A stretch of DNA of 64,000 nt from an uncultured bacterium. Lineage in GTDB: Bacteria; Patescibacteriota; Gracilibacteria; Absconditabacterales; Absconditicoccaceae. The notes beneath the pieces are model-generated. The model saw nothing but the letters and a program-made list of their open reading frames with translations, was not told the origin of the DNA and did not search any database. Positions 9,241 through 64,000 of the stretch are shown piece by piece. Positions within the stretch are counted from its first letter, which is position 1. Every line of letters begins with the position of its first letter. The stretch spans positions 17,762 to 81,761 of the forward strand of contig CAMVOC010000002.1 in assembly GCA_947169045.1 (NCBI GenBank). Direction: 5' to 3'. The position numbers and the translations under genes are program-made.

Positions 9241-10143
9241 ATGATTCTCCTCATCACGTGTATTCTTTGACTCATATTCGGATCCTTCGGTTCCGTTATT
9301 TTTTTTAGACTCGGAGATCTCCCTAACCGGAAAGTCCTTAAATCTTTCCTCATTGGACGTTCCGAATGCCAATACTGTCACCATACGCTCCATCGGAAAG
9401 ACCTTTTCCCTATCGTAAGTTTTGCAGTACAGAGAGGAAAATGTCGCTATTGTAAAGGAAAACTTTCTCGACGATATCCCGCTATTGAACTCTGAAGTAT
9501 GCTCATTTTTGTACTTATCCCTCTGATTGCCAACCACGGATCACTAGCAATTCCTACACAGCAACTAGGAATTATCGTTCTTCTTACATTTTCACTCCGA
9601 TTAACGTTTCTCATTGCTCTATATGATTTTTACAGATATGAACTACATTCTACAGCAACCCTACTCTTATTTATACTTTCTTGCTGGTTAAATTATCAAG
9701 TCTCAACTCCTCTTCTCCTACGAATACAAAGCATAGGTCTTTTTTTTGGAATTTTCCTCGCAATTTACTTTGTATCCAAACTCCGAATTTATCTCAAATA
9801 CCACAAAAACTCTGAAGGTTTCGGATTTTGAGATGTGCTATTTACCGGTATCATCGGAAGTTTCTTCCCCGTATTTTTCACCGACCTTGAATCACGAGAT
9901 TGAGCAATCATTTTATGCCTTTTCGTCATCATTTCATGCATTATCGGAATACTTATCTATGCTCTCTCATTTGTCAAGTTTTTCAAGCAACATCTCATCA
10001 AATCACAAAAAAAATCTGACCTTCCCATCACAAAAATAGTAAAAACAACGCCTATTCCATTCATTCCAGCAATGGCTATCAGCTTTTTATTACTTCTCAT
10101 CTGCAGAAATTACCTCTTGACTTTGATGAAATTTTATTTATAA
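9241..10143 (+). CDS. pilD: Prepilin peptidase / N-methyltransferase (A24 family)
   Basis: ATG at 9241. N-terminus GLIFGSFGSVIFFRL. Zn-finger pairs CQYC and CRYC. YPAIEL. Catalytic GFGF-[TGA=G]-DV at 9829-9831. Continues through TGA at 9829 and 9901 to TAA at 10141-10143. Track ORF 9499..9831 is an internal fragment. Confidence 0.9.
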
Positions 10144-10207
10144 TAAAAGAACGGACACTCATAATAAATATAAGTAGTATAAATAATTAAACGTTAAACA
10201 TCCTTAG

Positions 10208-10237
10208 AATAGGATAAGTTTGCTTATCCTATTTTTT
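10208..10237 (+). terminator. Rho-independent terminator after pilD
   Basis: Stem AATAGGATAAG / CTTATCCTATT with a TTTG loop, followed by a T-run. Confidence 0.75.
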
Positions 10238-10328
10238 ATAAACTCCAAAAGTTTATACTTGAAAAGGGCGTCATAATTCATATCATTTGATAGAGATAAC
10301 ATATCTTTTACTTTTTCACACACTGCAA

Positions 10329-11168
10329 ATGTCACTACTCAACCAACTCACTTCCGATTATACACAAGCCATGAAAGACAGAGCAGAAACCAAAAAAATC
10401 GCTCTCAATTTCGTCCTTGCCCAGGCGAAACAAAAAAGAATCGATACACAAAAAGAACTTACTGACGACGATATCATTGCTCTTCTCAAAAAAGAAATCA
10501 AATCCATCAATGAAGCAATCTCATTTTTAGAAAAAGCAGGAAACAAAGCTGACGAAATTGCCATTGAACGTGAAAAAATACAAATTTTCCAATCATACCT
10601 GCCTGCAATGTTAGACAAAGAGCAGACAAAAAAGCTGATTGAAACCTTAATTGCTCAACTACATATCACCGATCTCAAAACTCAAAGAGGAATACTTATG
10701 AAAGAGCTCATGGGAAGCCACAAAAGCGAAATCGACAGCAACCTCGTAAACGAGCTCATCGCTACGCGAGACTCACAAACCACTTCTCCAGACCAAGGAT
10801 CAGAGGAAAAATCTCAAACAGGAGAGGGAGTTATTACCGTTCTTATCAAAGACTCAACAGGGAAAGAAGTCGGATCTTTCCAAGTAAAAAATGACGAAAA
10901 TGCCTCACAATCCATCCAAGAACTAGCCGCAATGCACGGAATCGAAATCCCTCTTGCATGCGGAGGTGGAGTTTGCGGAGTTTGCCTGTGCAAAGTAGAA
11001 TCTGGAGGTGAAGCTGTCCAATCAGATAAAATTACTGCTCCAGCAATTTCTCTCCCTCAAGACGCCAATGGAAATCCTGCAGAAATCCTCGCCTGCGTAG
11101 CAGGGATCAAAACTGAAGCTCTAAAAAAAGGAGGAAATACAACAATCGTCCTCCAAAAGGCCTATTAA
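10329..11168 (+). CDS. YqeY/GatB-like domain fused to a plant-type [2Fe-2S] ferredoxin domain
   Basis: The N-terminal ~150 aa (LTSDYTQAMKDR...LLKKEIK...YLP) look like YqeY. The C-terminus carries C-x4-C-x2-C (ACGGGVCGVCLC) and a distal ILAC cysteine. ATG at 10329 lies inside track ORF 10287..11168. Confidence 0.7.
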   Translation: MSLLNQLTSDYTQAMKDRAETKKIALNFVLAQAKQKRIDTQKELTDDDIIALLKKEIKSINEAISFLEKAGNKADEIAIEREKIQIFQSYLPAMLDKEQTKKLIETLIAQLHITDLKTQRGILMKELMGSHKSEIDSNLVNELIATRDSQTTSPDQGSEEKSQTGEGVITVLIKDSTGKEVGSFQVKNDENASQSIQELAAMHGIEIPLACGGGVCGVCLCKVESGGEAVQSDKITAPAISLPQDANGNPAEILACVAGIKTEALKKGGNTTIVLQKAY

Positions 11169-14225: not shown

Positions 14226-14747
14226 ATGAACATCGTCATTTTAGAAAATATACGCTCTGCTTACAATGTAGGGAATGTCGTCAGAACCGCTGATGCACTC
14301 GGTCGAGACGTACGAATCACAGGATACACCCCTTCCCCATTGGAACATCCGAAAGTTAAAAAAACTTCATTATGAGCAGAAGAAAGCGTGCGTCTCGAGC
14401 AATTTAATTTCACTGCCGATGCAATCCAAGCACTAAAAGACAGAGCACGTACAGGCCCAGAAAAACGAGGATGATATACCATCATCGCAGCAGAGCTCAC
14501 TCCCGATGCTATCAATCTAGAAGAGTTTTCGCACACTCTCAAACAAACCACCGCCAACGAACCGTCTAAAGAGAAAAAAGTGGCCATTGTTTTTGGAAAC
14601 GAAGTCGAAGGAGTATTACCTTCAACCCTCAATCTCGTAGATCATATCGTACAAATTCCTATGCAAGGAATCAAAGAATCTCTCAATATCGGACAATCTG
14701 CTGCAATTTTTATGCGAGAATTAGGGAAAACCTGAAGCAAAACATAA
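14226..14747 (+). CDS. SpoU/TrmH-family RNA 2'-O-methyltransferase
   Basis: MNIVILENIRSAYNVGNVVRTADALG and VAIVFGNEVEGV...IPMQGIKESLNIGQSAAIF are SpoU motifs. Three internal TGA. No track ORF exists on this strand; only an antisense one is listed. Confidence 0.85.
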
Positions 14748-14857: not shown

Positions 14858-16996
14858 ATGGCAACTTCAAGACATCAATTTACTGAGGTTCAGCAAACTT
14901 TTGACCGAGCAGGGAAAAAAATCTGATTCGACCAAGGAAAACTCGCAATGCAAGCGGATGCTTCTATTACCGTTGCGTTTGAAGATACTGCAGTACTATT
15001 TTCTACAGTAGTAGCAAAAGAACCTAAAAGTCTCGACCAAGACTTTCTTCCACTCATGGTAGACATCAGAGAAAGCTTTTCAGCAGCAGGAAGAATTGGA
15101 GGAGCTGCATATCGCAGACGCGAAGGTCGCCCTTCAGATCAGGCAATTCTCAATGCCAGACTTACTGATAGAGCCATCAGACCAATGTTCCCAAAAGGAA
15201 TGATTAATGACGTAGTAATTACCGCAACGCCTATGGCATTAGATCCTAGGTATCCTCTAGGAGTAAGTTGTATCATTGGATCAAGTATTTCCGTAATGGC
15301 TTCCGGATTACCTTTCGACGGGCCAGTAGGAGCCGCTCAAATTGCTTATGTAGACGGAGAATTTATCGTAAATCCAACACATGAACAGTTAGACAAAGCT
15401 GAATTAAACCTTTTGGTAGCTGGTAAAAAAGATTCAATCAATATGATTGAAGACGAAAGCAATGAAGTTCCTCCTGAATTAATGAAAAAAGCTTTTGAGC
15501 TCGGACAAGCAGAAATCAATCGCTGTTGCGAATTCCAATTAGAATATCTCAAGCAACTGAATATCACTCCAAAAGAAGTTGTTTTCAATAAACCTTCTCC
15601 AGAACTTGAAGAAACAATACGTACATATCTGGGAGAAGATAAACTCGAAGCAATGATGGGAAATGCAAAAGTCAGCTTTAATGACTTATATTACGTATAT
15701 GAAAAGGATCTTCTAGAACACTTCAAAGCAGAAATCGAAGACGAAGAAAATCTAGAATTTTCTGTTTCCAAAGTCAAAATGGCATTTTTCAATACGACAA
15801 AATATTTTATCAGAGGAAGAACGCTAAATACCGGAAAAAGAGTAGACAATAGGACACAACTAGACATTCGTCCTCTGTACTGCGAAGCTGGACTCTTCGA
15901 AAGAACACACGGTACTGGTTTATTTTGGAGAGGTGATACCCAAGTACTTTCTACCGTTACCTTAGGAGGACCAACTGAATACCTCATCCTTGACGATATG
16001 GAAAACGACGACATAAAACAAAGATACATTCATCACTACAATTTCCCTCCATTCTCTACAGGAGAAGCAAAAGCTATGAGAGGGACAGGAAGAAGAGAAA
16101 TCTGACACGGAAGATTGGCAGAAAAAGCACTCGAAAGAATGATTCCAGAAAAATCTGTATTCCCTTACACCATCAGAGTAGTTTCAGAATGTCTTAGTTC
16201 TGGAGGTTCTACATCAATGGGATCTGTATGTGGATCTACACTTTCTCTCATGGACGCTGGAGTACCAATCAAAAAACCCGTTGCAGGAATTGCTATGGGA
16301 CTATTCACTGAGCATGATGAAGCAGGAAATATCAGTAAACACCTCGTACTCAACGACCTTATGGGGACTGAGGATTTCATTGGAGATATGGATTTTAAAG
16401 TAGCAGGAACGAGAGATGGAATCACTGCAATCCAACTCGACACGAAACTTAAAGGAATTCCGCTTTCTATCGTATTTGAAACGATTGACCAAGCATTTGG
16501 AGGATACAACGAAATTATGGACGTAATGCTAGAAGCGCTTCCTGCAGCCAGACCTCAAGTAGGAAAATACGCACCAAAAATTGAAGTATTCACCATCAAT
16601 CCTGAGAAAATCAAGGAAGTAATCGGTAAATGATGAGATATCATCAATAAAATCATCGAAGAAAACGACAACATTAAAATAGACTTTGAAGAAGACGGAA
16701 CCTGCTATCTTACGCATCAAAACAAAGAAGTAATTGATAGAGTAAAAGCAATTATTCTAGAAATCGCAACAGATTTAGAAGTCTGACAAGAATTCGAAGG
16801 AGAAATCAGCAGAATAGAAGATTCTTACATGTTTATCCGCCTTCCAAAAGGAAAATCAGGATTCTTACACGTAACCAACCTCTTAAATAGGACTTCTTGA
16901 CCACTAACTAACTCATTCAAAATAGGTCAAAAGCTGAAAGTTATAATCTCTAAGATTGACGCAACAGGAAAAATAGCAGTAAAACAAATCGGATAA
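14858..16996 (+). CDS. pnp: Polyribonucleotide nucleotidyltransferase (PNPase)
   Basis: Track ORFs 14948..16105 and 16115..16633 share one frame. GRREI-[TGA]-HGRLAEKAL (16103-16105) matches the invariant REIGHG. The KH motif VIGK-[TGA][TGA]-D corresponds to GKGG (16631-16636). S1 domain, then TAA at 16994-16996. Confidence 0.96.
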
Positions 16997-17904: not shown

Positions 17905-18390
17905 TTAAAGCATCATAAGGACAACATACACAATCCCCAATCACGCTACCGCATATCCAATTCCACCAAAAATATCAATAACAAAATGTTTTTTTAACTT
18001 CACCCTAGAAATCATAACCAACACCGCCATCACTCCATAAAAACAAAAAACAGGAATAAAATACGGACTCTCCCAAAAAGCAACTGCTCACAACGTCCAA
18101 ATAACCACCACCGTAATAGTATGCATACTCGGAAAACTTCCTGCCATCAATTTTTTACGCCGATTTCCTAATTCCATCGGTACTGGACGATGCTTAAAAA
18201 AAACTAATTTAGTAAAACCTGCCAATCCCAATGGAAGCAGAAAACAACACGCTACTATGATAAATAACACCAAAAAAGCCCTAACATCTCAGTCCCACAA
18301 ACATGCTCAAAGAATTACCAAATATGGTATCATCAACACAGGAGCATAATAACTTCAAAACCTTGTAATAATCCTCCAAAACCTCTGCAT
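17905..18390 (-). CDS. PAP2-family phosphatase (undecaprenyl-diphosphatase-like)
   Basis: KHRPVP, SFPSMHT and SRVKLKKHFVIDI match the KxxxxxxRP / PSGH / SRxxxxxHxxxD signature. The start at 18390 is the first ATG in the extended frame. Confidence 0.75.
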
Positions 18391-20200: not shown

Positions 20201-20956
20201 ATGCACCATAAAAACAGCAATACAAAAAGCTGAAATCCTGCACCTTTAGCCTATAATCAAAATTCTTTATCCATGCATGTTTGAATTATCTTAGATGGGA
20301 ACCGCCGTCGAGCAAAACAGAGAAATCTTCCTAGCATCCAAGGGCATCTTGCCGGAGCAGAAAGACTCGAAAGTACCATCAAATACGGCTTCGAAAAAGG
20401 CATAGACATTATCACCGTCTACGGCTTCTCGACTGAAAATCGAAACAGAGACCCTTCAGAAGTCGAAGGGCTTATGAAAATCTTTCTCGATTATCTCAGC
20501 GCGATGATTCCCAGATTGGAAAATCAAGAAATCAAAGTTAATATTCTAGGGGACAAATCAGCTTTTTCTCCTGATTTACAGCACATTATGCAGCAATTAG
20601 AAGATTCAACAGCAAAAAAAAGCTGACATATTTTCAATCTTTGCCTCAATTACGGAGGAAGAACAGAATTACTCCAAGCAATGCAACGCCTCGCCAACGA
20701 AGTCCAAAAAGGAAACCTACAACCCACCGACATCAATGAGACACTGATCTCAAACTATCTGTACACCAAAGGACAACCTGATCCCGACCTAATCATCAGA
20801 ACCAGCGGAGAAAATAGACTTTCAGGATTTTTAACGTGGCAATCAACATATGCAGAGCTCATCTTTACAAAAACGCTTCGACCCGATTTTTCAGAAGAAG
20901 TATTCGATGAATGTTTAACAGAATACGAAAAAAGACACAGAAGATTCGGAAAATAA
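20201..20956 (+). CDS. uppS: Undecaprenyl diphosphate synthase (cis-prenyltransferase)
   Basis: HV-G-IILDGNRR, YGFSTEN, LNYGGR, RTSGENRLSGFLTWQSTYAELIF, RRFG. The three canonical Trp positions are CGA codons. Start is ATG 20201 (alternative ATG at 20273). Confidence 0.9.
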
Positions 20957-24100: not shown

Positions 24101-25286
24101 AGCAAGGGATAATGAATATGCAAAGAAATTACGTACATTCCTCCAAGAAGCAACACATGGAGAATTTGAAAAAACCTGCAAAGTCGGTGATAAACCATAC
24201 AAATTTGATGATTTCTTCCCAACAGGATTCCCAAGCGACAAACAGCCAGCTCCTAACTACAAAAATCTCATATCTTGAGTAGAAAAATGGCGAAACCAAA
24301 AGGAAAATAGAGAAGCTCTAGAGAAATTTTCTCATGAGACGCTCGTTGCCAAAAACCGAAATGAAAATGCATATCTCAAAGAATTTAAAGATAAAGTCCT
24401 GGATACTGACCCAGAGGGATTAGGAGGAGAACGAGAAGGAAATGATGTGATTTCTCTGTGTGCAAGACTTGATTCAAACATCAATATTATTGCAAAAAAT
24501 ACCAGATATGACAACGAAGAATTTGAAGGAAAAGATGAAGATCAAAAAAATATGAAAGCAGAATTTTGGAAAAATATCAATAAAGAATTAGATGCAACAA
24601 AAAATAACGCAACACCAGAAAAAGTAACCTACATTGCGAGAGGATTTTGCAATTTATTTTCAAATAAAGGATTCTGAAAAAGCAGCTTACCAACATTTGT
24701 AGAAAGAATTAGCATCGCCAATCAATACTACACAAACCCAAATATGCAAAGCGAAAAAGCAAATACAATAACAACAATCAACAAAGATGAAATAGAATTA
24801 GGAAGAATCGGAGAAGACGACATAAAAAAGTTATTACGACGATCTACAGTCGGGGAAATTTTAAGTAGAGGTAATGGAAATCCTCCAACAGAAATGATGG
24901 ATGGGCTAACAAAATTTTACGAGTTTTTCCGAAAGAATTTGGAGACCTTAGCTTCAGACTCAGTAATCAAGGAAGCCTTTTGACTAAACAGTAAAAATAT
25001 CGAAGGAGAATATCCAAAAAAATTAGCCAACCGAAAAATATATCAAAAAACCATTAAAAACAATCCAACCATTGAAGAACTCCTCAATAACGATATCGAT
25101 ATTGACGACCTAGCAGAGTTTTCACAAGAGAACCTACAAACCAAAAAAGATAAAGAAATGAAAAGGAAAGAAAAACGAGTCTTTGAAACGAGAACTATCA
25201 ACAAAGAATTATTCGACACAGAAAGAATTTGTATGAGTAGAGGAAAACATATCAAAATCCCACCAGAATACCGCCTCTCTATCTAA
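21120..25286 (+). CDS. Very large hypothetical protein (1388 aa), no recognisable domain
   Basis: Track ORFs 21537.., 22911.., 23808.., 24447.. and 24744.. are all in frame 3. All six gaps were checked codon by codon and contain only TGA. ATG at 21120, TAA at 25284-25286. Lys/Glu-rich, with no signal peptide or TM helix seen. Confidence 0.85.
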
Positions 25287-25297: not shown

Positions 25298-26281
25298 TTA
25301 CAAGGCAAGACCTACTTTTTTATACACCTCACGCATCTTTTGCTCCGCAAGTGCACCTACCACTTTTGCATTTTTCTCCAATAAATCAATAATTTCTGCA
25401 TCACTAATAGAATAATACCTTTCCTGTAACGGCTTGAGATACGCCCACATCTTTTCAAAAGCATAATCTTTCGCCTCTTTATACGAATATCCACCTGCTA
25501 AAAACTTCTCTCTCAATGCAACATCCTCCTCTGGAGTCAAGAAAAACTTCACAATATTATACACATGATTTTCATCAGGATTTTTTGGCTCTTCAACCGT
25601 TTTCATATCAGTAGAAATCTGCTTAACTTTTTTCAAAAGCGTTTTTTCATCATCCAATAACCCAATATAATTATTGTAGGATTTAGACATTTTACGTCCA
25701 TCTAAACCAATAATTGTCGCTGACCCCTCAGGGATAAAAGGCTCCGGAAGCACGAAAGTCTCTCCAAATTGACGATTAAATTTTCCAGCAATATCCCTCG
25801 CATATTCCACATGTTGCTTTTGATCCTTCCCAACCGGTACCAAATTCGCATCATACAGCAAAATATCTGACGCCATCAAAATCGGATAACAAAACGTCCC
25901 AACGCTCACTTCTCCAGCCTTTCCCTTAGCTAAAGCATCCTTATAACTATGCATCCTTTCCATCGTCCCCATAATCGTCAGACACGTCAAAACCCAGTTC
26001 AATTGAGCATGTCCAGGAATATCCGCAGGATTATAAATATACACACGGCTCGTATCAACTCCCAACGCCTTATACAGCTTCAAGATTGTTAAACTATAAT
26101 TCCTAAGCGTGGTTGCGTCGTGAATAACCGTCAAACCATGCATATTAGCTAAAAAGAGAAAAAAATCTGCTTCTTTTTCCTGTTTTGTCAGTTCCACAAA
26201 CGGACGAATCGCACCAAAAAGATTTCCGAGATGCAATTGTTCTCCTGTCGGTTTTAATCAGGTAAGTATTCTTTTTTTCAT
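25298..26281 (-). CDS. trpS: Tryptophanyl-tRNA synthetase
   Basis: MKKRILT-[TGA]-LKPTGEQLHLGNLFG (the GxxPTG and HLGN class I motifs) and KMSKS. ATG at 26279-26281. Confidence 0.95.
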
Positions 26282-26331
26282 CATATACTACTATGGAATA
26301 ATAAAAAGATTTCAATGATACAACATCTCAC

Positions 26332-29177: not shown

Positions 29178-29202
29178 TTCAACGTGTTAACTCATCCAAA
29201 AA

Positions 29203-29455: not shown

Positions 29456-29493
29456 GGAAGTATCCTTTTTATTTTATTTATTCTTTTTTCTAC

Positions 29494-30236: not shown

Positions 30237-32135
30237 ATGAAAAAATCGCTTATGCAATTTATTTGCTTCTTCATACTACTCACCGGAGCATTACGATTTT
30301 TACAATCCACCTCCACCCATCAGCAAACCGATACTGAAGGTCAAACGATAGAAGAAATTGCCAAAGAAGAAGATACAAGCCTCAGTAAACGATTATCTCT
30401 CTATCAGATGGGGAAATTCGAAAAAGTAGTCATAGAAAACGGAGTCGATCTCAAAGGATTTCAATTTATCACGACAGGGATAAGTCAGAATTTTTTCTCT
30501 CTTAACCAAGAATCTCGTCACTACAACCTCATCACCGCAAAAAAACCCGTAGACACCACTATTTCTGAACTTGGAATCTCGTTAACAGGAAACACCATCG
30601 TCTCTGCAGAATACGTAGAAAAAGGCTTACTAAGGAGCTTTATAGAAAATTTCTGAGGAATTATCCTTTTACTCCTCCTACTCACCTTCGGAATGAAATT
30701 CATGATGGGACGCGGAAATGGTGCAGGGGGGCTCCTCAATATCAAAGTAGGGAAAAAGCCGACAAAAGACACCAAAAAAACCAAATTCACAGACATTGCA
30801 GGAATGGAAGAAGTCAAACAAGAACTTATGGAAGTTGTGGATTACCTCAAAAACCCAGACAAATACAAAAAAGTCGGAGCTAGACATCCAAAAGGAGTAC
30901 TTCTCTATGGAGAACCAGGTTCTGGAAAGACCTTACTCGCCCGTGCTGTAGCTGGAGAATCTGAAGTGCTATTTTTGAATGTTTCTGGATCAGAATTTAT
31001 GGAAATGCTCGTAGGAATGGGAGCTGCAAAAGTGAGAACCCTTTTCAAACAAGCAAAAGACGCAGGGAAAGCCATCATTTTCATCGACGAAATCGATGCC
31101 ATTGGACGTAAAAGAGGGGCAGGACATAACGGAGCAAACCAAGAACAAGAACAAACACTCAACCAGATTTTGACGGAAATGGATGGATTTGATAACGATA
31201 CCAATATTATCGTTATGGCCGCGACCAACAGACCAGACATTCTCGACCCTGCACTCCTCAGAGCAGGAAGATTTGACAGAAAAATCTACGTAACCACACC
31301 AACTGCAGAGGAAAGAACTGCAATCTTTGAATACTACCTCAAAGGAAAGAAAATCTCTCCAAAAGTAAAAATCGAATCATTAACCAAAAGAACAAGCGGA
31401 TTAGTAGGTGCCGACATCGAAAACATCGTCAACGAAGCCAGCCTCAAAATCGCAAAAGACGGACGCGAAATCCTAGAAGTAGAAGATTTTGAATACGCAC
31501 TCGAGAAAGTCATTATGGGACCAGAAAAAAAAGTAAAAGGAATCCAAGAAAAAGAAAAAAAGCTGACAGCCTTTCACGAACTCGGACACGCATTATTGGC
31601 TCATCTTCAAGACGAAGCCGACCCTGTAGAGAAAATTTCTATCGTCAGAAGAGGACACGCCCTCGGAGTAACACGAACTACTCCAACCGAAGACAAAAAC
31701 CTCTATTCAAAGCAATATTTACTCTCCGAACTTTCCGTAATGCTTGCAGGACGTGCTGCTGAAGAAATATTTTTCGGACCTGAAGAAATTACCACCGGAG
31801 CAGCAAACGATTTCGAAAGAGCAACACAAACTGTTAGAAATATCCTCACCAAATTTGGAATGGATGAAGAACTTGGAATGGTCGTTTACAAAGAGGATCC
31901 TGATTTCCCTCTCCTAAAACCGTACAGTGAAGAAACCGCTCAAAAAATTGATAGAAAAATCAAAGAATATCTCGATAATGCCTACCAAATTTCCAAAAAA
32001 ACTATCACAAAGCATAAAAAGCTGATTGAAAAAATTGCAGCCATCCTCGTCGAAAAAGAATTTATTACCGGAGAAGAATTTGCTGAAATAGTTAATACGT
32101 TCGTTGTTGAAAACGAAGCAAAAAAATCTGATTAA
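30237..32135 (+). CDS. ftsH: ATP-dependent zinc metalloprotease FtsH
   Basis: Track ORFs 30237..30656 and 30693..32135 share one frame, joined by TGA at 30654. Walker A GEPGSGKT. IIFIDEIDA. SRH. HELGHAL zinc motif. Confidence 0.96.
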
Positions 32136-33269: not shown

Positions 33270-34019
33270 ATGGGGATTCTGAGCGTCATTTTAGTAGGAA
33301 GTCTCTATGGATTTGGAGCTCTCCTTGACCATCGAGGAATCAGCGCCGCAAGTGGACTTTCACGAATAGGAAGTTTTATCCTGTATCTTAGTCTGCTTTT
33401 TCTTTTCCTGATGTTTCGAAATAGACAATGGAAAAGTAAACAAACGCGATTTCTAGCGCTCATTCGAATCCTCCTCCTCGCGATCGTAGGCATCTTCGGT
33501 CTCCATTACGGAATCCAAAGCATCTTACTCCTGCTCGTTGCTGCCTACGTTGAAGAATTTCTCAAAATCACCGCAGCACAAACACAATCAGATACAACGC
33601 ATTTCAATTCAGATATTCTCACCTTTGCTCTCCTGATCGCCTTGGGATTCAGTATCGTAGAAAATCTTCTGTACATAGGGCTCAATTTTTCTAGTGGAGA
33701 AGCGGGAGGATTTGGTTTATTCGTAGGGCGTTGAATTTTTGCCTCTGGAGTACATATCTTAGCCACAGGAGTCATCGCATTACTCCTCTTCAAGCTCTAT
33801 CAAAGCACACAAATGTTTGCACATAAAAGCGGAATAGCATGAACCGGTAAAATTCTTGCGCGCGTAATCTTAGGAATGCTTGCAGGAGTAGGGTTACACT
33901 TTGGATATAACTTTTGCATTGCTCAAGGATGGACACGAGTATATGGAATCGTCGTAATTGGAGGATTCTTTTTGCTCAGTTATCTGCTTTTTTTATCTGA
34001 TAGACTATACCAAGACTAG
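33270..34019 (+). CDS. prsW: PrsW-family intramembrane metalloprotease
   Basis: Polytopic. Motifs VEEFLK, GFSIVENLLY and GVHILATG. ATG at 33270. TAG at 34017-34019 abuts the atpA start codon. Confidence 0.8.
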
Positions 34020-38393: not shown

Positions 38394-38394
38394 C

Positions 38395-39258
38395 ATGAAT
38401 TACAAGCCGTTTGTAAAACGGGTCTGATGAAAAAGACAGTTATTAGAACAATTTAAAAACTTATATCCCAAAGATTTCAACGAATATTATGAACCATTCG
38501 TATGAGGGTGAGCGGTATTCTTCGATCTCAGGATCAATTTCTGATCGAAGTTTACAGCTCGCCTTTTTGATTTAAACGAAGAATTAGTAGTTACATATAA
38601 TATTGTGAAAAATGACACAGATAAGCTAATCCACTTATTAAAAATTTTTCAAAATAAACATTCAAAAGATTTTTTTATAGAAATTAGAAGCCGAGATAAA
38701 AATGCAAATTTCAAAAATGAAAAATCAAAAATAGAAAGAGCTGCAAGATTTATTTACCTTAACAGAACCTGCTTTAACTGAATGTACAGAGTAAATTCAA
38801 AATGAGAGTTCAATGTTCCATTTTGAAAATACTCTAATCCGAAAATTTGTGATGAAGAATGACTTTATTTAGCTAAAGAAGCATTACAAAATACTACAAT
38901 AGAAAATGCAGATTTTTCAATAGTAGAGAGACAAGCTAAAAAATGAGATTTTGTATATTTTGATCCTCCTTACGATGTTTTAACTGATACAGCGAATTTT
39001 ACAGATTATAATAAATGATGATTTGGTAGAGATGAGCAGGCAAGATTATTTAATACTTTTGATAAATTGAATAAAAAATGCTGTTATACAATGCTTTCAA
39101 ATCACAACACTCCATTTATTCGTGATTTATATAGGAGTTATAGAAAAGAAATAGTTTTAGCAAAAAGAATGATAAATTCAAATGCAACTAAAAGATGAGC
39201 GATTGAAGAAATCGTAGTTTTAAATTATCAAAATTTAAATGAAAAAGATAAAAAATAA
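38395..39258 (+). CDS. Dam-like (D12 class, alpha group) N6-adenine DNA methyltransferase
   Basis: MNYKPFVK-[CGG]-V-[TGA][TGA]-KRQLL (KWAGGK motif). EPFV-G-G-G-AVF. FIYLNRTCFN-G-MYRVN. FNVPF-G-KY. FDPPY (38962-38973). 13 in-frame TGA (all codons checked). TAA at 39256-39258. Confidence 0.9.
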
Positions 39259-42165: not shown

Positions 42166-44376
42166 TTAACTACCCTTGTTGCCCTTCTTGCGTGCCAGCG
42201 AAGCTAAAAACGCATCCATTTGTTTAAAATTATCAAAAGTGGAAACCCAAAACGTCAAATGATGCAACAAAAATTTATCCAATACAATTCATAAATTAAT
42301 ATTTTTCTCATTACGAAGCACTTCTAGCTGTTTTTCTTTATACTGACTATCCCATCCCGAAGACAATTCTGTAGCTTTCTGGCTTTCTCACTCATAATCT
42401 GTTTGTGCCAGGACATTATTATCCAGCTTAGCAATAAGCGATTGAATCACGACATTAGCATCGATTGACTGCCAAGTTAATAATCACTGAGCATCAGAAG
42501 AGTCCTCCTTGCTGGTTGAAGAATCTTGATTGGTAGATTTCACACTCGAATCCACAGTAAAGACAAACATATCCGAGAAATTAATGTTTTTCGTCGTGCT
42601 ATCCAGCATTTCTTTCTGTTTAGTCCAAGTTCAAAGTTCTCAGCTCTTATCTAACGCATCCAATACTCCATACACCTCAGAAATAATCTTCTCAAAACTA
42701 TACACAATAATTCCATTGGCATCAAAAAAGTGATTCGTAGTTGGAACTGCACAATATTTAATCCTCAAAATTGGTCAAAGTTCAGGATCAGTTTCTGGGT
42801 TTCGCAAAGGGGAATCCCGCATATTACAAGTACATGTTATCTTACAAGCTAATTCCTCATCAATCCTCAAATCATCACATTTTGCAAGACACTTTTTCGC
42901 TTCTTCAAGATTTTCCTGCTCTGCAGGCGAACGAATAGAAGAAACTTTTGCCAAGGCAGAACCCGCCGTTCAAAATTTATCCTGAAATTCAAACAAAAAG
43001 GTTCCATTTTCGGCAAACGTATACGTAGTCGAACCGTGATTATTGGTAACTACCACATCAGCATGATTAAAACTAATCGTTGCATCCACTGTTCCTGTCG
43101 TAGTTCTAGCTGGAGTATAGGTAATCGTCGCTTTAATCCTTCCAACCGTAGCAGTCGTTGGTTTGGTGGTATTCAACACATCGACCTGAGGCTCAGTAGC
43201 TAAAACATCCTGTACATACTGGAGAAAATCTGCGACTCCCACCTCATCCAAAGAAAGATCTCCTCATCACGACACCGTAGTTGATGAATCTTGATCAGTT
43301 TCATCCTCATCTTCATCCTCAGCACAAGGATCTTTACCAATATCAGACACTTGATCATCACCAAAAGAAGAAGGCTGACCTCCTTCTTGTGCGTCTAAAA
43401 ACGTAGTAAACTCGTCATCTCGTCCAAGTCAATTTCGTCATTCTGCAGCATCACCGCTCGAAAATGAAGTTGATGAAGTATTGTTATCCCCATCCCCTTT
43501 CGCATTCGATTCTAATGAATTCGTACCGCCATCAGAAGCCGAATTTTGAGATGTTTTATCCCCTTTATCTCAATCTTGTCCTTGTCCTCTAAAGATTGGC
43601 ATTTTATAGTATGCGATGACAAAGGATTCCTTAATATCTTCAAAAAAGACTTTAGCTAGCACATTAAGATCAAAAAGCAGATCAAAAGGAGAATCTTCCT
43701 CTGCATAAGCAGAGCTCCAATTCCAAAATTTATCCTGTCCAAGTTGAGCATTTTGTACTTGTTGGAGACGAGAAGTCTGCTGAATACCCACATTATACCA
43801 GTTATTAAATTTATCCCTACAGTCCGTCATCACATCTCCACGGAAAATAGTTCCCGTACCAGAACCAGGGTAATAACACCGATTAAAAGCTTTACAAGCA
43901 GTTTCTGCAGATGTTCTATTTTCCTTGAAGTCTATAGCATGAAAGGTATTCCTAGAAACCTGTAACGCCATATTGCTACGAAAATCATTATTAAAATAAT
44001 ACAAAATCGCAGTAATATCATCATTACTCAGAAAGCACTGTTGCAACGCTAGCTGATCCTGAATCATCTGAATCCCCCCAAGCGCAATATCTATATCAGC
44101 ATTTTCTATCTCTTGAACAATATCACTAAAAGGATTTTCTGGGAAATGCACATCATACACGCGGTCTAATCACTGGTTCTGTTTGGCTCTTTTGCTATCC
44201 AACGTATGCATCAACCATCTCGAAATAGCCAAATCTATCGTCAATTCCCCTTTCTCCCAAGTACTACCAATCGTACCAAAACCCAAAGAAACAGAAGCAG
44301 CAAAAACACCCCAACTCGTGAGGACTATCCCAGCACTAATACTCAAGATAAGTTTTTTAATTCGCTGCCTGTGCAT
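42166..44376 (-). CDS. Hypothetical secreted protein C (736 aa) with acidic linker, Ig-like beta domain and Cys-rich modules
   Basis: Track ORFs 44170..44376, 43570..44160 and 42970..43251, plus 42166-42969, share one frame. All gaps were checked and hold only TGA. N-terminal anchor ILSISAGIVLTSWGVFAASVSLG. TAA at 42166-42168. Confidence 0.8.
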
Positions 44377-45529: not shown

Positions 45530-45597
45530 AGCAACAAATCTGTGATAAAATAAATTTTTATAGTTCATAACCGATAATCAAATAAATAAAGGGTATA

Positions 45598-48444: not shown

Positions 48445-49806
48445 ATGAAACGACTTAGAATTCTACATCCTTTCTTTCATTTCCTCATTATTCTCTTCGT
48501 CTTTTTCCTGACGTACAAATTGAGACTTCGAGGAGATTTTTTCCGTGATGTCCCATTCATCAACATCCAAGAACTTCAGATTTTTGCGCTTTGTTCTGCC
48601 CTTATTTTCGTAACGCGAGGACGAATCAAAAAACTCTACCAACTCACAACCCTCTCCGAAACGACCATTAGAATCCTTCCAAAAGTACGAAGTTATCGAT
48701 TTATTTCTATGACATTTATTTCTTACTTCGGACAAGGGTTCTTATTTATGCGAGGAGTATCCAGATTTGTCATCATTTCTGCAGGAATTATCAGCTTTAT
48801 TTTACTGTTTTTCTTCGACCAATTACGAAATTTCATAGATTTTAAATTACAGCAAAAAGCAGGGAAAAAAATTCTGATTATCTCCAATAACCTCATAGAC
48901 AACGTAGAAATCCTCCAAACCATCAAGCAAAACTTCTCTTTCCCGACAGAATTTGCACAATATCAAGACATCGACAGTATCCAGCTTACCAATTACGCAA
49001 TCACCGTAGCTATAGGAACTTTTGAAAGAAACGATTTACAAGCCCTCTTCGAAAAAGTAAGATTCAACCCTACAAGATTTTTCCATATTTCAGAAGGGTA
49101 TTTCCTAGAAGACGTCGTCTACATCCCAGAGAAACTCGACAGTATCATCGCTATGGAGTACAAACATTCCAAATTAGACGGACGATCTCTCGTTATCAAA
49201 AGACTTTGCGACATTTTTGGATCCATCTTCGGAATTATTATTGGACTAATTCCTATGCTGATTATCGCAATACTTATCAAAATAGACAGTCCAGGACCAG
49301 TAATTTATTCTTCCAAAAGAGTTTGAAAAGGCGGAAAACTCTTCACGTTTTATAAATTCCGTACTATGTACACAGATTGCTGTACAGGAGTTGGAAATTC
49401 GAAGGCTGACAAGCTCTATCAAGACCTGATAAATTCCAGCAAAAATACCAGAGATAAAATTATGCCAAAAATCCAAAATGATCCAAGAGTAACCAAATTA
49501 GGAAGAATTTTACGTAAAACTTCTCTAGACGAACTGCCTCAATTATTTCAAGTATTAGTCGGTTCAATGTCTCTAGTAGGACCACGCCCTCATTTGCCAA
49601 ATGAAGTCGAAAAATACGAACCACGAATGAGGAGAGTATTGAGTATTAAACCAGGAATTACCGGATATGCACAGGTATTTGGAAGAGATAGCCTACCATT
49701 TGAAGAGGAAGCAAAACTCGATCTCCACTACATTCAGAATCGATCTATTTTTATGGATATTTACGTAATTTTTGCTACATTTTGAGTCGTATTCAAATGA
49801 AGATAA
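48445..49806 (+). CDS. Polyprenyl-phosphate sugar phosphotransferase (bacterial sugar transferase family, WbaP/EpsL-like)
   Basis: Several N-terminal TM helices. KFRTM, DELPQL, LVGPRP, KPGITGYAQV. Track ORFs 48445..49326 and 49366..49785 share one frame. TAA at 49804-49806. Confidence 0.9.
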
Positions 49807-60579: not shown

Positions 60580-61383
60580 ATGCCTACAGAACTTTCAGAA
60601 CAACAAACTCCTTCCTTCGAACAATTTGCCAACCGCGACGAAAGCGGGAATATCTTCCGATGGGCTTCAGATTTTTTGCTGATGCTCTGATATTCAGAAT
60701 TAAAAGAACAAAAAAAGCTGATCGACAAAACGATAAAAGCACTCCTCAACCTAGAGATAGACCTCTACGATAACCTCCAAAAAACAGAAAGCGGAGGCAG
60801 AATAGACTACAAAATGTCACGTTATGCCTGCTATCTCATGGCAATGAATGGGAACCCCAACATTCGCCAAGTAGCACTTGCACAAGATTATTTCGCACAG
60901 CAAACCAGAAAAACAGAATTACTCTCACAAGATCCAGATCGTCTCGCCATCAGAAACGAGATTTCCGAAGGAAACAAAACTCTCTCTAAAACAGTCGCTC
61001 GCCACGGAGTTTTTGATTATGGAAGATTTAATGTCGCAGGATACGAAGGAATGTACAATATGACAAACCAAGACCTAGCCGAACGCAGAAATATCAATAA
61101 AGAAAAGCTATTGGAATATATGGGACGTACCGAGCTTGCAGCCAATCTCTTCCGTATCACACAAACTGAAGAAAGAATTAAAAACCAAAACTTACATGGA
61201 CAAGCGCAACTTGAAGATGCACATCGCCAAGTAGGGAAAGAAGTGAGAGCTTTCGTGCAAATCAATACAGGAGACACTCCAGAAAATTTAAAAATTGAAA
61301 TGCCTCTCAACGAGATGAAAAGAGAGTTAAAAGACGCAAGGAAGGCACTAACAGATAACGAAGCTCCCACTGATTCGATTTAA
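60580..61383 (+). CDS. dinD: DNA damage-inducible protein D
   Basis: ATG at 60580. The N-terminus joins track ORF 60814..61383 across TGA. SRYACYLMAMNGNPNIRQVALAQDYFAQQTRKTELL closely matches the DinD core. Confidence 0.85.
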
Positions 61384-61507
61384 TCTTGATTTTCTGCAAA
61401 ACATCGATACAGTAATCTCAACCTACACAACGCAACAATCATTGCAAGGAAGCCTCAATCAAAACAACGTATTTTTTTGAGTTTTTACATGTTTCTCAGC
61501 ATCTTTG

Positions 61508-62719
61508 ATGAAAAAAATCAGACTTTTCCTAACTTTTTCTTTTTTTCTGGCTTCATGCATCCTTTTATCTGCATGTCAAAAGACCGAACTTACGGCTGAA
61601 GAACTGCAAAAATCTTTCCATCAAGCAAACCAATCACGACTAGAAAATATAACAAAAACCCTTACTCCATTCTCTACCGAACAAACTCCTACACTTCATT
61701 CCGTTTCCCAGACAATTTTTTCTTTTCCAGAAAGTTCACTCAAAGGAGGTGGAATACTCAATATCCAAAAAATCATTAGCAATCAGAAAGAAAAAGCTGA
61801 CATCACACTAGACGTAGATCGACAAAGTACTGACAAAAAAATAAACAAAGAAGAAAAGTCACTCTCTCTCGCAATAGAAACGCTTTCTGCAAACCAAAAC
61901 ATGTATGGTCAAATTCACGACTTTGACATTTTCCTTTGAGAAGGGAATTATCAAGCTATGACACTGAATCTTGTCCTTAAACAAATCAAAGACAAACGAA
62001 TCGATCTCTCTTCCAACCAAAGCATAGAGATCTCCATTTTCAATACCCCAAGATATGATGAAATTGCACAAATCATCACTTCACTCTTTTTCACGGATTT
62101 CTCTCCGCAGCGAAAGAAAACCAAAAACGATACCTACCGTTGAGAAATTCTCGAGCTCCCTACAACCTACACACTTCAAATGCAAGAAATTATGCGCCTG
62201 TTAGCACCTTTCGGCATCTATATTGACCAGTCAGAATTTGTTTGGGCTCCAGAGATGGACAATGAAATCTTACTTTCCCCAAAAGGAAAAGAAATCAGAC
62301 TAACATTCAAAAGTTACAATCAATTCATTCCTGTCACATTACTGCTCACAAAAGAGCAATTAGAAATACACATCAGTGTTGTCTCTTCTGAAGACGAAAC
62401 ATACCCAACATTATCCCTAACACTCAGCCCAAAAAATGCAAAGACCTATACCTTTACAGGAGAATTAAGAAAACTACATAATTCTCCAAAAGAACCTCCA
62501 GAACGGACAATTAACGGAAAATTCCAACTCGCAGAAAAAAATGGAATACTCAATACCACCTACAATATCTTAATGCAAATCACTTCGCTGGCTTTAGCAG
62601 ATGATCAAAAATTAAACATTGCCATCCAATGAACAGAGACACTCCAAGCTACTTGAGCAGACAATATCGATCTCAACGAGCCAACAGAAACTATCCCTTT
62701 AGACAATTTATTTAATTAA
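61508..62719 (+). CDS. Hypothetical lipoprotein (403 aa)
   Basis: Lipobox ILLSAC. Track ORFs 61505.., 61958.. and 62180.. share one frame, joined by TGA. TAA at 62717-62719. Confidence 0.75.
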
Positions 62720-62723
62720 ACCA

Positions 62724-64000
62724 ATGACAACAAACTTTTCAGCAAATACTTTAGGAACATCGTCAGAATCAAATACCCAGAATTCTGCACATACCATCCT
62801 AAAAGTCAGCTTTTTTATCCTGGGAGCCATGTTAGTGCTATTTTTTTCTGCAAGTATGGTTTCAGGATTCAAAGAAATCTGGACTTCTCTAAAAGAAAAA
62901 GGCATTGCAATCGTTACAAAAACAGTGGGGACTGAAATGAAAAAAGACGAAAACGGGAATGTTAACGTTCTACTCTTGTGATATGGAGGGAATGGACACG
63001 ATGGAGGGTTCTTGACGGATTCTATCATCATCGCAAGCCGAAACCCTGAAGTTGGAACGGTCTCTATGTTTAGCATTCCAAGAGATCTCCGAGTAAAATA
63101 CACAACAGGAGGATACGGACGTATAAATGCCAGTTTCTATCTGCTCTTAAAACAAAATAACGATGATCGAGAACTCGCAACGAGTTGAGCAAGGGCTGAA
63201 TTCTGAAAAATGCTTGGATTAGATATTCCATATTATGCGACCATTGATTTCACCGCCTTTAAAGGACTAGTTGATGCTGTAGGAGGAATAGATATCGTCG
63301 TACCAGAAACCATTCACGACACAACATATCCAAATGATGCAAACAGATGATACATTACCTTCCATATCGACGCATGAGAACAGCATTTAGACGGTGCAAC
63401 AGCATTAAAATACGCTCGTTCCCGTCATTCAACATCAGACTTTTCTCGCTCTTTAAGACAGCAAATAATTCTTAAAGGAATAAAAGAAAAACTGGTTAAT
63501 TCAGGATTCTCTACTTCGACTGCATTAGAATTATATGATGTATATGCACAATACATAAAAACGAATATTGCTTCTCAAGAACTCCTTTGGGCTAGTCAAT
63601 TTATCAAAAACATTGGAGAATTCTCAAGCTTTGGATTTACTACAAACTGTAGCTTTCAAAACTTTCTCAGAATGGTACCAGCATGCTTTCTGTATTACCC
63701 AAGCAGAGAACTATTTTGAGGAGCAAGTGTAATGCTACCAATGGACGCAACACCAAAAGATATCCAACACTATGAAGATATGCAAAAGTTTACGCAATTC
63801 ATCACGAGCCATCCTCAAATGATCAAAGAAAAAACAAGTATCTCTGTCGTAAGCGCTATCGACAGCCAGCTTGCAAAAGACCACAGAATGGGAAATACAA
63901 AATTTAACGATCAACTAGCCGTAAAACTCAAAAGATATTGATTTAATGTGATAGACAGTATGATTCGAGCTGACCCTATGGAATATTCTACTGTTTCTGT
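62724..64000 (+). CDS. LytR-CpsA-Psr (LCP) family cell-wall polymer ligase (3' end lies outside the window)
   Basis: TM anchor. LLL-G-YGGNGHDGGFLTDSIIIAS, SIPRDL, RINASF, HLDGATALKYARSRH. Track ORFs 62724..62981 and 63732..63941 share one frame. Confidence 0.88.

What the first reader, a model, noticed from the sequence alone, without database searches (positions are those of the whole stretch)
9394..63092. Second recoding: CGA and CGG sit at invariant tryptophan positions (apparent Arg->Trp sense-codon reassignment)
UppS has CGA at all three canonical Trp positions: DGNRR-[CGA]-AK for GRWA (20309-20311), STEN-[CGA]-NR for ENW (20441-20443), and L-[CGA]-PDF for LWPDF (20879-20881). The sugar transferase has YEP-[CGA]-MRRVLSIKPGITG (49624-49626) and IQN-[CGA]-SIFMD for NWS (49741-49743). 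Dam has K-[CGG]-VGGK for KWAGGK (38419-38421). PilD has LH-[CGG]-KDLFP for the W-x-N-I-P position (9394-9396). PNPase has D-[CGA]-AGK for DWAGR as in Bacillus (14906-14908). FtsH has GVT-[CGA]-TTP at an aromatic position (31674-31676). DinD has IF-[CGA]-WAS (60658-60660). LCP has SIPRDL-[CGA]-V (63090-63092). In PrsW, a CGA lies in the middle of a TM helix, LALI-[CGA]-ILLLAIV (33465-33467). In contrast, every invariant arginine I checked uses CGT, CGC, AGA or AGG. These include AtpA GDRQTGKT and [11 protein letters not shown], TopA SAGRVQS and YMRTDS, Obg GGRGG, and LCP PRD. TGG is still used for Trp as well. From memory, a computational screen of genetic codes reported CGA/CGG->Trp in an Absconditabacterales clade. 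This window looks like a member of that clade or a relative. The change alters the predicted sequence of most proteins here.
Basis: partly seen in the sequence, partly recalled or inferred. Interest (0 to 1): 0.85.

Follow-up and report, generated by a model that had tools for sequence, protein, structure and literature searches.

The report
CGA and CGG read as tryptophan
This stretch of an uncultivated SR1/Absconditabacteria-type bacterium uses the arginine codons CGA and CGG for tryptophan (and TGA for glycine); this rare bacterial genetic-code change was already reported for this group in 2021, and standard annotation still mistranslates it.

Summary
Shulgina & Eddy 2021 predicted CGA and CGG→Trp in Absconditabacteria, and a 2026 preprint re-identified it.

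All 12 cited codons are at the stated coordinates and in frame. UppS (3 sites), Dam, the transferase NWS site and PNPase lie on Trp or aromatic columns of standard-code homologues.

In 120 SR1-type orthologues of the sugar transferase, six CGA columns are pure W/R mixtures. Arg-codon columns there are R/K/Q; 19 of 20 have no W.

At codon level in relatives, window CGA/CGG pairs with CGA/CGG (42) or TGG (22) and once with another Arg codon. The 524 aligned CGT/CGC/AGA/AGG positions never pair with CGA, CGG or TGG.

About 4.1 kb beyond the window, the same species encodes a tRNA(CCG) with Trp-type features: A1:U72, G73, no A20, and a body 63% identical to E. coli tRNA-Trp. A tRNA(UCG), needed for CGA, was not found.

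Two of the 12 sites do not support the claim. LCP aligns to R/K and the DinD site is uninformative.

One pattern I did not see in the papers read: the choice between TGG and CGA follows strand composition (p = 1e-16 in the window, 7e-18 in relatives).

The parts
20309..20311 (+). CGA, UppS aa37 (DGNRR-X-AK)
   Evidence: W in 5/5 solved UppS structures. W in 3/3 standard-code loci. CGA in relative L088.
20441..20443 (+). CGA, UppS aa81 (STEN-X-NR)
   Evidence: W in 5/5 structures. W in 3/3 standard-code loci. CGA in L088.
20879..20881 (+). CGA, UppS aa227 (L-X-PDF)
   Evidence: W in 5/5 structures. W in 3/3 standard-code loci. CGG in L088.
38419..38421 (+). CGG, Dam/D12 methylase aa45 (VK-X-V-TGA-TGA-K)
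   Evidence: Aligns to KW(T/A)GGK in DpnM and E. coli Dam. The two following Gly are TGA codons.
49741..49743 (+). CGA, sugar transferase aa433 (IQN-X-S)
   Evidence: W in WbaP structures. W70/R48 in 120 SR1-type orthologues. TGG in L085.
49624..49626 (+). CGA, sugar transferase aa394 (YEP-X-MRR)
   Evidence: W95/R24 in SR1-type orthologues. TGG in L085. E in WbaP, so it is conserved only within the clade.
48688..48699 (+). Two CGA codons, sugar transferase aa82 and aa85 (48688-48690 and 48697-48699)
   Evidence: Columns are pure W/R mixtures: W80/R40 and W91/R29, with no K.
48826..48828 (+). CGA, sugar transferase aa128
   Evidence: W83/R37 in relatives. TGG in L085.
49183..49185 (+). CGA, sugar transferase aa247
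   Evidence: W79/R41 in relatives.
14906..14908 (+). CGA, PNPase aa21 (FD-X-AGK)
   Evidence: EWAGR in two solved PNPases and Y in the E. coli and Coxiella enzymes. CGA in L088.
31674..31676 (+). CGA, FtsH aa480 (GVT-X-TTP)
   Evidence: L in Thermotoga FtsH. Q in one standard-code locus. TGG in close relative L088.
9394..9396 (+). CGG, PilD aa52 (LH-X-KDLFP)
   Evidence: Column in 148 representatives is A48/W28/F12/P11/R8. Compatible with Trp, not decisive.
9469..9474 (+). CGA-CGA, PilD aa77-78 (KLS-X-X-YP)
   Evidence: aa77 column is W29/L17/I15/R14. aa78 column is Q45/R34/L18 with no W, so it is ambiguous.
33465..33467 (+). CGA in PrsW transmembrane helix, aa102 (LALI-X-ILLL)
   Evidence: CGA in L088. 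The neighbouring CGA at aa96 (33447-33449) is TGG in L088. The context is hydrophobic.
14715..14717 (+). CGA, SpoU methyltransferase aa164 (AAIFM-X-E)
   Evidence: Aligns to F/Y/W/F in four solved SpoU-family structures.
18160..18162 (-). CGG, PAP2 protein aa77
   Evidence: TGG in L088.
42817..42819 (-). CGG, g37 aa538
   Evidence: TGG in L085.
63090..63092 (+). CGA, LCP aa130 (SIPRDL-X-V).
   Evidence: Aligns to R in TagV and K in Lmo1026. No relatives' DNA was obtained for this gene.
60658..60660 (+). CGA, DinD homologue aa27 (IF-X-WAS).
   Evidence: The BLASTP alignment to E. coli DinD starts at the next residue, a TGG-encoded W. The DinD family match is E = 7e-51.
25298..26284 (-). TrpRS gene (g23), the enzyme that must charge the CGR-reading tRNAs
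   Evidence: Matches the trpS equivalog at 268.8 bits against a cutoff of 176.75. Orthologues are named tryptophan--tRNA ligase by NCBI. It carries clade-specific substitutions at near-invariant columns.
9085..9157 (+). tRNA-Arg(CCU), the only tRNA in the window. A canonical Arg-type contrast.
   Evidence: ARAGORN and Rfam. It has the D-loop TGGATAG (A20), G1:C72 and A73.
34518..34886 (+). AtpA invariant Arg motifs GDRQTGKT and [11 protein letters not shown]. Control sites.
   Evidence: These Arg residues are encoded by CGC, CGT and CGT.

Best explanation
The organism is an uncultivated SR1/Absconditabacteria-type bacterium that also reads TGA as glycine. It decodes CGA and CGG as tryptophan, not arginine. 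Arginine is encoded only by CGT, CGC, AGA and AGG.

Shown for CGG: the same species carries a tRNA with anticodon CCG whose body and identity elements are tryptophan-type. It has A1:U72 and G73, and lacks the arginine determinant A20. Its anticodon differs from CCA only at position 36. The inference is that the window's TrpRS charges it with Trp.

Inferred for CGA: this codon is about ten times commoner than CGG, so it must be read by a U34 tRNA(UCG) of the same kind. Such a tRNA is reported for most Absconditabacterales, but I did not find it in the 84 kb of this species that I could reach.

TGG and CGA therefore behave as synonymous codons. Strand-specific mutational bias decides which is used: CGA on C/A-rich coding strands and TGG on G/T-rich ones.
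For: 1. Standard-code homologues. UppS 3/3 sites are W in 5/5 structures. Dam is W. WbaP NWS is W. PNPase is W/Y. SpoU is F/Y/W/F. In standard-code loci, CGA aligns to W 10/19 and R 0/19, while AGA, AGG and CGT align mostly to R and TGA to G 86/106.

2. 120 SR1-type orthologues of g42. Six CGA columns contain only W and R (W70-95, R24-48). The Arg-codon columns are R/K/Q; 19 of the 20 contain no W, the exception being the variable CGT column at aa34 (W45/P42/S25).

3. Codon-level comparison in 13 relatives' loci. Window CGA/CGG (79 alignments, 57 sites) pairs with CGA/CGG 42, TGG 22, other Arg codons 1, Lys 3. Window TGG (126) pairs with TGG 55 and CGA/CGG 22. Window CGT/CGC/AGA/AGG (524) pairs with CGA/CGG 0 and TGG 0. 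Fisher p = 6e-63 on the smaller set.

4. Internal consistency. The TGG-only Trp content would be 0.31% in + genes against 1.26% in - genes. With CGA/CGG counted as Trp it is 1.22% against 1.69%.

5. tRNA(CCG). It lies at L094/L095 14352-14423, about 4.1 kb past the window end, in contigs 99.6-99.7% identical to the window. Rfam scores it as tRNA at 69.5 bits and it folds as a cloverleaf. It has A1:U72, G73, U20 and a 5-bp anticodon stem. It is 63% identical to verified E. coli tRNA-Trp, against 45-46% to three Arg tRNAs, all of which carry A20 and G1:C72.

6. Literature. CGA and CGG→Trp was inferred for all 10 Absconditabacterales species analysed, with tRNA(UCG) and tRNA(CCG) present in most (PMC8629427). 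It was re-identified by a second method (bioRxiv 10.64898/2026.04.02.715157).
Against: - No peptide-level or aminoacylation evidence exists, here or in the papers found.
- tRNA(UCG) was not located.
- CGG evidence is thin. There are 12 codons, of which 3 are clearly Trp-like (Dam; TGG in relatives at g18 and g37), one pairs with AAG, and two PilD columns are weak or gappy.
- A few CGA sites align to R, K or Q in homologues: LCP aa130, PilD aa78, and g22 aa642, g22 aa1271 and g37 aa23 in relatives.
- The tRNA(CCG) retains C35 and G36, which are ArgRS determinants in E. coli (my own knowledge). Some Arg mischarging therefore cannot be excluded.
Confidence: 0.92

Rival explanations
1. Decoding is ambiguous. 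CGA/CGG are read mostly as Trp, but a meaningful fraction is read as Arg. This could be because the Trp-type tRNAs keep the ArgRS determinants C35/G36, or because an Arg-type tRNA(UCG) coexists elsewhere in the genome.
For: A handful of CGA sites align to R, K or Q columns: LCP aa130 and PilD aa78. Four relatives' pairings are to AGA, AAA or AAG. The tRNA(UCG) was never seen, so its identity is unknown. Shulgina & Eddy explicitly note that ambiguity cannot be excluded without experiment.
Against: CGA sits at catalytically or structurally invariant Trp positions in essential enzymes (UppS x3) and inside a transmembrane helix, where frequent Arg insertion would be costly. It is as common as TGG: 129 versus 129 outside the low-GC island. 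The tRNA(CCG) lacks A20, the main Arg determinant.
Confidence: 0.07
2. Only CGA is firmly reassigned. CGG is too rare to be assigned with confidence and could be Arg, unassigned or mixed in this species.
For: There are only 12 CGG codons in credible genes. One CGG pairs with AAG in a relative. PilD aa30 is gappy with K/R/W. In the 2021 screen several Absconditabacterales had CGG = '?' and one was inferred as Arg.
Against: Dam K-CGG-VGGK is an invariant W. Two CGG sites pair with TGG in relatives. UppS aa227 is CGA here and CGG in L088. The cognate tRNA(CCG) of this species is Trp-type.
Confidence: 0.05
3. The code is standard table 25 (CGN = Arg), and the lineage has simply replaced many Trp residues with Arg.
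For: None beyond the few R/K-aligned sites.
Against: Window CGA/CGG interchanges with TGG 22 times and with other Arg codons once. True Arg codons never interchange with CGA, CGG or TGG across 524 alignments. W-to-R replacement at UppS, Dam and WbaP invariant Trp positions using exclusively CGA/CGG codons is not credible. It would also leave + strand genes with 0.31% Trp.
Confidence: 0.01

Closest known systems
Absconditabacteria (SR1) genetic code: UGA→Gly plus CGA and CGG→Trp (Shulgina & Eddy 2021, eLife, PMC8629427)
   Same: It has the same three codon changes and low GC (0.366, against the reported 0.26-0.38). AGA is the main Arg codon. A tRNA(CCG) with G73 and no A20 is present. The nearest homologues are named SR1 or Absconditabacteria.
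   Different: CGA is as frequent as TGG here (63 versus 70 per 10,000 codons). The paper reports CGA below 37 per 10,000 in aligned Pfam domains and describes an early, not-yet-rebounded stage. The two measures are not strictly comparable. The strand dependence of TGG versus CGA use is not mentioned in the papers I read. The tRNA(UCG) was not found here.
CGG→Trp in Anaerococcus and in RFN20 Bacilli/Onthovivens (same paper; PMC13092985)
   Same: An arginine CGN codon is captured by tryptophan in a low-GC genome through a dedicated tRNA(CCG) with Trp identity.
   Different: In those clades CGA stays Arg, is read by tRNA-Arg(ICG), and tRNA(UCG) is absent. Here CGA is the main reassigned codon and UGA is also recoded.
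UGA→Trp in Mycoplasmatales and insect endosymbionts (table 4)
   Same: It works alike. Trp gains a second codon through a Trp-type tRNA whose anticodon differs from CCA by one base (UCA there, CCG here), in AT-rich reduced genomes. The anticodon comparison rests on my own knowledge together.
   Different: There a stop codon is captured, and the change is at anticodon position 34. Here sense codons are captured and the change is at position 36, plus position 34 for the presumed UCG tRNA.
AGG→Met in Enterosoma (same paper)
   Same: It is a bacterial sense-codon reassignment of an Arg codon that has become a major codon for the new amino acid.
   Different: The amino acid differs. The mechanism proposed there is a change in charging of an Arg tRNA. 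Here the tRNA body is Trp-like.

Membership tests
Absconditabacterales code (UGA=Gly; CGA, CGG=Trp) | UGA is a sense codon for glycine | tested here: met
   There are 223 in-frame TGA codons. ORF coverage is 93% only with TAA/TAG as stops. TGA aligns to G 86/106 in standard-code homologues. Dam GG in KWxGGK is TGA-TGA.
Absconditabacterales code (UGA=Gly; CGA, CGG=Trp) | CGA falls on conserved Trp columns, not Arg columns | tested here: met
   The codon matrix is (p = 6e-63). Exceptions are LCP aa130 and PilD aa78.
Absconditabacterales code (UGA=Gly; CGA, CGG=Trp) | CGG falls on conserved Trp columns | tested here: met
   Dam is W. Two CGG sites pair with TGG in relatives. The sample is small: 12 codons and about 6 informative sites.
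Absconditabacterales code (UGA=Gly; CGA, CGG=Trp) | tRNA(CCG) with Trp identity (G73, no A20; A1:U72 as support) | tested here: met
   Found in the same species 4.1 kb outside the window (L094/L095 14352-14423). It has A1:U72, G73 and U20, and is 63% identical to E. coli tRNA-Trp.
Absconditabacterales code (UGA=Gly; CGA, CGG=Trp) | tRNA(UCG) with Trp identity | tested here: inconclusive
   It is not present in the window plus 9.7 kb upstream and 10 kb downstream, nor in 13 relatives' loci. The metagenome pattern scan returned only ordinary Arg-type tRNA(UCG). The rest of the genome is out of reach.
Absconditabacterales code (UGA=Gly; CGA, CGG=Trp) | No tRNA-Arg(ACG); CGU/CGC read by tRNA-Arg(GCG) | not testable with these tools
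   This needs the whole genome. Only a relative's tRNA-Arg(GCG) was seen (L007).
Absconditabacterales code (UGA=Gly; CGA, CGG=Trp) | Placement in the order Absconditabacterales | tested here: inconclusive
   The best TrpRS and transferase hits (57-86% identical) are named Absconditabacteria, SR1 or Absconditicoccaceae. No phylogeny was built, and NCBI labels the MAG only as 'bacterium'.
Absconditabacterales code (UGA=Gly; CGA, CGG=Trp) | Trp actually inserted at CGA/CGG (peptide evidence) | not testable with these tools
   No experimental confirmation was found in the library.
Standard table 25 (UGA=Gly only) | All six Arg codons interchange with one another and sit on Arg columns | tested here: not met
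   CGA/CGG never pair with CGT, CGC, AGA or AGG positions (0/524) and pair once in the other direction (1/79).
CGG-only→Trp codes (Anaerococcus, RFN20) | CGA remains Arg | tested here: not met
   CGA is the main Trp-column codon here.

The most novel reading that the evidence does not exclude
The reassigned codon is no longer a rare, recently captured codon. In this lineage and its relatives CGA has become the majority Trp codon in genes whose coding strand is C/A-rich, while TGG dominates on the other strand. Replication-strand mutational bias would then be what drives the rebound of a reassigned sense codon. TrpRS may have co-evolved to accept anticodons differing at positions 34 and 36, through clade-specific changes at otherwise near-invariant columns. 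If that pattern is unreported, it offers a natural read-out of the neutral codon-capture stage.
Probability: 0.4. Interest if true: 0.5.

Novelty: already known. Interest (0 to 1): 0.3.

Why it matters
Sense-codon reassignments in bacteria are very rare, and this one changes the predicted sequence of most proteins of the organism. In this window alone 133 residues are affected, many of them invariant catalytic or structural tryptophans.

Public resources still mistranslate them. The species' NCBI MAG is labelled 'bacterium' and yields TGA-truncated products. Database proteins of relatives carry R where W belongs. That degrades homology searches, structure prediction and any functional inference for SR1 proteins.

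The in-window TrpRS and the adjacent Trp-type tRNA(CCG) give concrete reagents for the missing experimental proof.

Tried and rejected
- A concatenated 2,608-aa query to the big protein database returned only 3 multidomain hits and wasted one search.
Table-11 fragments work.
- The GTDB genome scan anchored on TrpRS gave only 7 relatives, with no synteny beyond one neighbouring gene.
- The metagenome scan with the fast-evolving 1388-aa ORF g22 found nothing.
- Look-ups around TrpRS and the transferase in relatives with long contigs (GCA_028708205.1, RAAC1 CP006913) found no tRNA(UCG), tRNA(CCG) or tRNA-Trp.
- An ARAGORN panel from all fetched loci contained no tRNA-Trp, so it could not type the tRNA. 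I used verified E. coli references instead.
- Rejected: W-to-R substitution under the standard code, and readings of CGA as Phe, Leu or Tyr. The synonymous interchange is specifically with TGG.

Full report
**Observation.** The window has 36.6% G+C. With TAA/TAG as the only stops, 58 ORFs cover 93% of it. Under table 11 the ORFs are fragmented. Six ORFs look spurious, leaving 52 credible genes with 19,100 codons: CGA 121, CGG 12, TGG 134, CGT 155, CGC 51, AGA 334, AGG 98, TGA 223.

Pfam and NCBIfam confirm the gene identities: PilD, PNPase, UppS, FtsH, PrsW, Dam, Bac_transf sugar transferase, LCP, AtpA, Obg, TopA and a DinD homologue. The invariant arginines of AtpA, TopA, Obg and LCP are encoded by CGC, CGT, AGG and AGA.

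**Standard-code homologues.**
- UppS: all three CGA codons align to Trp in 5 of 5 solved structures and in 3 of 3 standard-code genomic homologues.
- Dam: K-CGG-V-TGA-TGA-K aligns to KW(T/A)GGK in DpnM and E. coli Dam.
- Sugar transferase: N-CGA-S is NWS in WbaP, while YEP-CGA-M aligns to E there.
- PNPase: D-CGA-AGK is EWAGR in two structures and Y in two others.
- FtsH: GVT-CGA-T aligns to L.
- SpoU: the four CGA codons align to V/V/A/V, a gap or L, a gap or N/T, and F/Y/W/F.
- PilD (148 representatives): aa52 (CGG) is A48/W28/F12, aa77 (CGA) is W29/L17/I15 and aa78 (CGA) is Q45/R34/L18. The four true Arg codons in the same segment sit on R-topped columns (R 64-127).
- About 1.2 Mb of standard-code flanks fetched for another purpose: CGA aligns to W 10/19 and R 0/19, AGA to R 135/218, AGG to R 230/296 and TGA to G 86/106.

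**Within-clade protein columns.** The 120 best database homologues of the sugar transferase are full-length SR1/Absconditabacteria-type proteins, 53-73% identical. Their database translations render CGA/CGG as R. Six window CGA columns (aa82, 85, 128, 247, 394, 433) contain only W and R, with W 70-95 and R 24-48 and no Lys. Four others are I/L/F columns in membrane segments and one (aa29) is a W/R/aromatic mixture. Columns under AGA, CGT, CGC and AGG are R/K/Q; 19 of the 20 contain no W, the exception being the variable CGT column at aa34 (W45/P42/S25). A W/R mixture with nothing else is what synonymous TGG and CGA/CGG use looks like when mistranslated.

**Codon-level comparison.** I fetched DNA of relatives. 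These include L088, with TrpRS 86% identical and synteny from Obg to PNPase, and L085, with the transferase 75% identical. Over 13 relatives' loci:

| Window codon class | Alignments | Relatives: CGA/CGG | TGG | Other Arg codons | Lys | Other |
|---|---|---|---|---|---|---|
| CGA/CGG (57 distinct sites) | 79 | 42 | 22 | 1 | 3 | 11 |
| TGG | 126 | 22 | 55 | 2 | 2 | 45 |
| CGT/CGC/AGA/AGG | 524 | 0 | 0 | 340 | 85 | 99 |

On the smaller earlier set Fisher p = 6e-63. UppS aa37, 81 and 227 are CGA, CGA and CGG in L088. CGA/CGG and TGG therefore form one synonymous class that is disjoint from the four remaining Arg codons.

**Internal evidence and strand bias.** Plus-strand genes have TGG 36 and CGA+CGG 107. 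Minus-strand genes have TGG 102 and CGA+CGG 35 (Fisher p = 1e-16). GC skew at fourfold sites is -0.45 in + genes and +0.54 in - genes. Counting only TGG, Trp content would be 0.31% against 1.26%. Counting CGA/CGG as Trp it is 1.22% against 1.69%.

The same dependence holds over 12 relatives' loci. Genes with G-rich coding strands have TGG 195 and CGR 88. Genes with C-rich coding strands have TGG 178 and CGR 306 (p = 7e-18). I read this as strand mutational bias choosing between two synonymous codons. That is an inference.

**tRNA and synthetase.** The window holds one tRNA, a canonical tRNA-Arg(CCU). The window is 100% identical to ENA contig ERZ14209546 NODE_256 over the 11 kb compared.

Using a table-11 ORF fragment near the right edge as a look-up handle, I obtained 10 kb beyond the window from contigs that are 99.6-99.7% identical to it. 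One of them belongs to NCBI MAG GCA_017612895.1. About 4.1 kb past the window end lies a tRNA with anticodon CCG, identical in two assemblies. Rfam scores it at 69.5 bits and it folds as a cloverleaf.

It has A1:U72, G73, D-loop AAUGGUA (U20), a 5-bp anticodon stem and loop CU-CCG-AA. I aligned it with E. coli tRNA-Trp and tRNA-Arg(CCG), both verified against annotated genomes, the window's tRNA-Arg(CCU) and a relative's tRNA-Arg(GCG). It shares the U20 D-loop, A1:U72, the anticodon stem and the T-arm with tRNA-Trp (63% identity). All three Arg tRNAs carry A20 and G1:C72 and are only 45-46% identical to it. These are the criteria Shulgina & Eddy used for Trp identity.

A tRNA(UCG), needed for CGA, was not found in anything I could reach.

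The window also encodes TrpRS, which passes the trpS equivalog cutoff. Compared with 67 standard-code TrpRS, 105 SR1-type enzymes carry fixed differences at near-invariant columns: QS→PA at 86-87, E→Q at 94, F→L at 210, G→K at 269 and R→Q at 287. Whether these relax anticodon recognition is speculation.

**Exceptions.** LCP SIPRDL-CGA-V aligns to R in TagV and K in Lmo1026. PilD aa78 sits on a Q/R column. The DinD CGA is outside the alignable block. Four pairings in poorly conserved proteins are to AGA, AAA or AAG. These do not outweigh the bulk pattern, but they keep low-level ambiguity open.

**Literature and novelty.** Shulgina & Eddy (eLife 2021, PMC8629427) predicted CGA and CGG→Trp in Absconditabacteria. 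[quoted passage not shown] A 2026 preprint re-identified the reassignment with a different algorithm. A 2026 NAR paper treats it as established and notes that their tRNA(CCG) genes have 5-bp anticodon stems, as this one does. No experimental confirmation was found.

The finding is therefore correct but already known. The window adds a further species, a concrete Trp-type tRNA(CCG) next to a TrpRS-bearing locus, parity of CGA with TGG, and the strand dependence.

Noticed in passing
whole window; relatives L005-L011, L085, L088, L090-L093: The choice between TGG and CGA/CGG depends strongly on strand and tracks a very strong GC skew at fourfold sites (-0.45 versus +0.54). In + genes 75% of Trp-class codons are CGA/CGG. 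In - genes the figure is 26%. The same pattern holds in relatives (p = 7e-18). It is not mentioned in the papers I read.
   Followed up: yes
window 25298-26284 (-): TrpRS is encoded in the window. SR1-type TrpRS differ from 67 standard-code TrpRS at near-invariant columns: 86-87 QS→PA, 94 E→Q, 210 F→L, 269 G→K and 287 R→Q. These may be adaptations to CCG and UCG anticodons.
   Followed up: partly
window 36754-40519 (+): This is a low-GC island (0.30) with reversed GC skew. It holds MatE, a DpnM-like Dam methylase and a DUF6996/DUF6997/DUF7226 protein that may be its restriction partner. TGA makes up 61% of Gly codons here, against 15% elsewhere. That suggests acquisition from another TGA=Gly lineage with much heavier TGA use.
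   Followed up: partly
L094/L095 14352-14423 (about 4.1 kb beyond window position 64000): A Trp-type tRNA(CCG) sits between a phosphoribosyltransferase-like gene and a Mur ligase gene. It has no encoded CCA.
   Followed up: yes
public records of this species (ERZ14209546 NODE_256; GCA_017612895.1): Gene calls on record are table-11 fragments cut at every TGA. NCBI labels the MAG only as 'bacterium' and lists a 312-aa TrpRS. Database proteins of relatives carry R at Trp columns.
   Followed up: partly
window 63090-63092 and 9472-9474: Two CGA codons (LCP aa130, PilD aa78) sit on columns where standard-code homologues have R, K or Q. They may be positions where an ancestral Arg became Trp through the reassignment, or signs of residual ambiguity.
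   Followed up: partly
window 1-1004 (+) and L001 1-9722: The window starts inside rpoC. Upstream of rpoC lie dnaG on the opposite strand, then murB and dnaK fragments, with no rpoB. The usual rpoB-rpoC linkage is therefore absent.
   Followed up: no
window 28566-30111 (+): There are two tandem paralogous type IV pilin-like genes with near-identical N-terminal methylation motifs and N-terminal halves. PilD (9241-10143) is elsewhere in the window.
   Followed up: no
window 44431-45597: This ~1.1 kb stretch between two minus-strand genes has only implausible ORFs (g38, g39) and no Rfam match.
   Followed up: partly
window 21120-25286 (+): A 1388-aa lineage-specific ORF (g22) has no Pfam match and carries 21 CGA/CGG codons. 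It is only ~50% identical in the relative whose TrpRS is 86% identical.
   Followed up: partly
L011 61-1208: In one relative, eight tRNA genes (Glu, Asp, Thr, Asn, Leu, Gln, Met, Gln) are packed directly beside TrpRS and cut by the contig end. A sister assembly (L090) breaks at the same place.
   Followed up: partly
L097-L176 (JGI metagenome contigs): The 80 contigs returned by the tRNA pattern scan carry 966 predicted tRNA genes in total, so many are dense tRNA arrays. They are unrelated to SR1.
   Followed up: no
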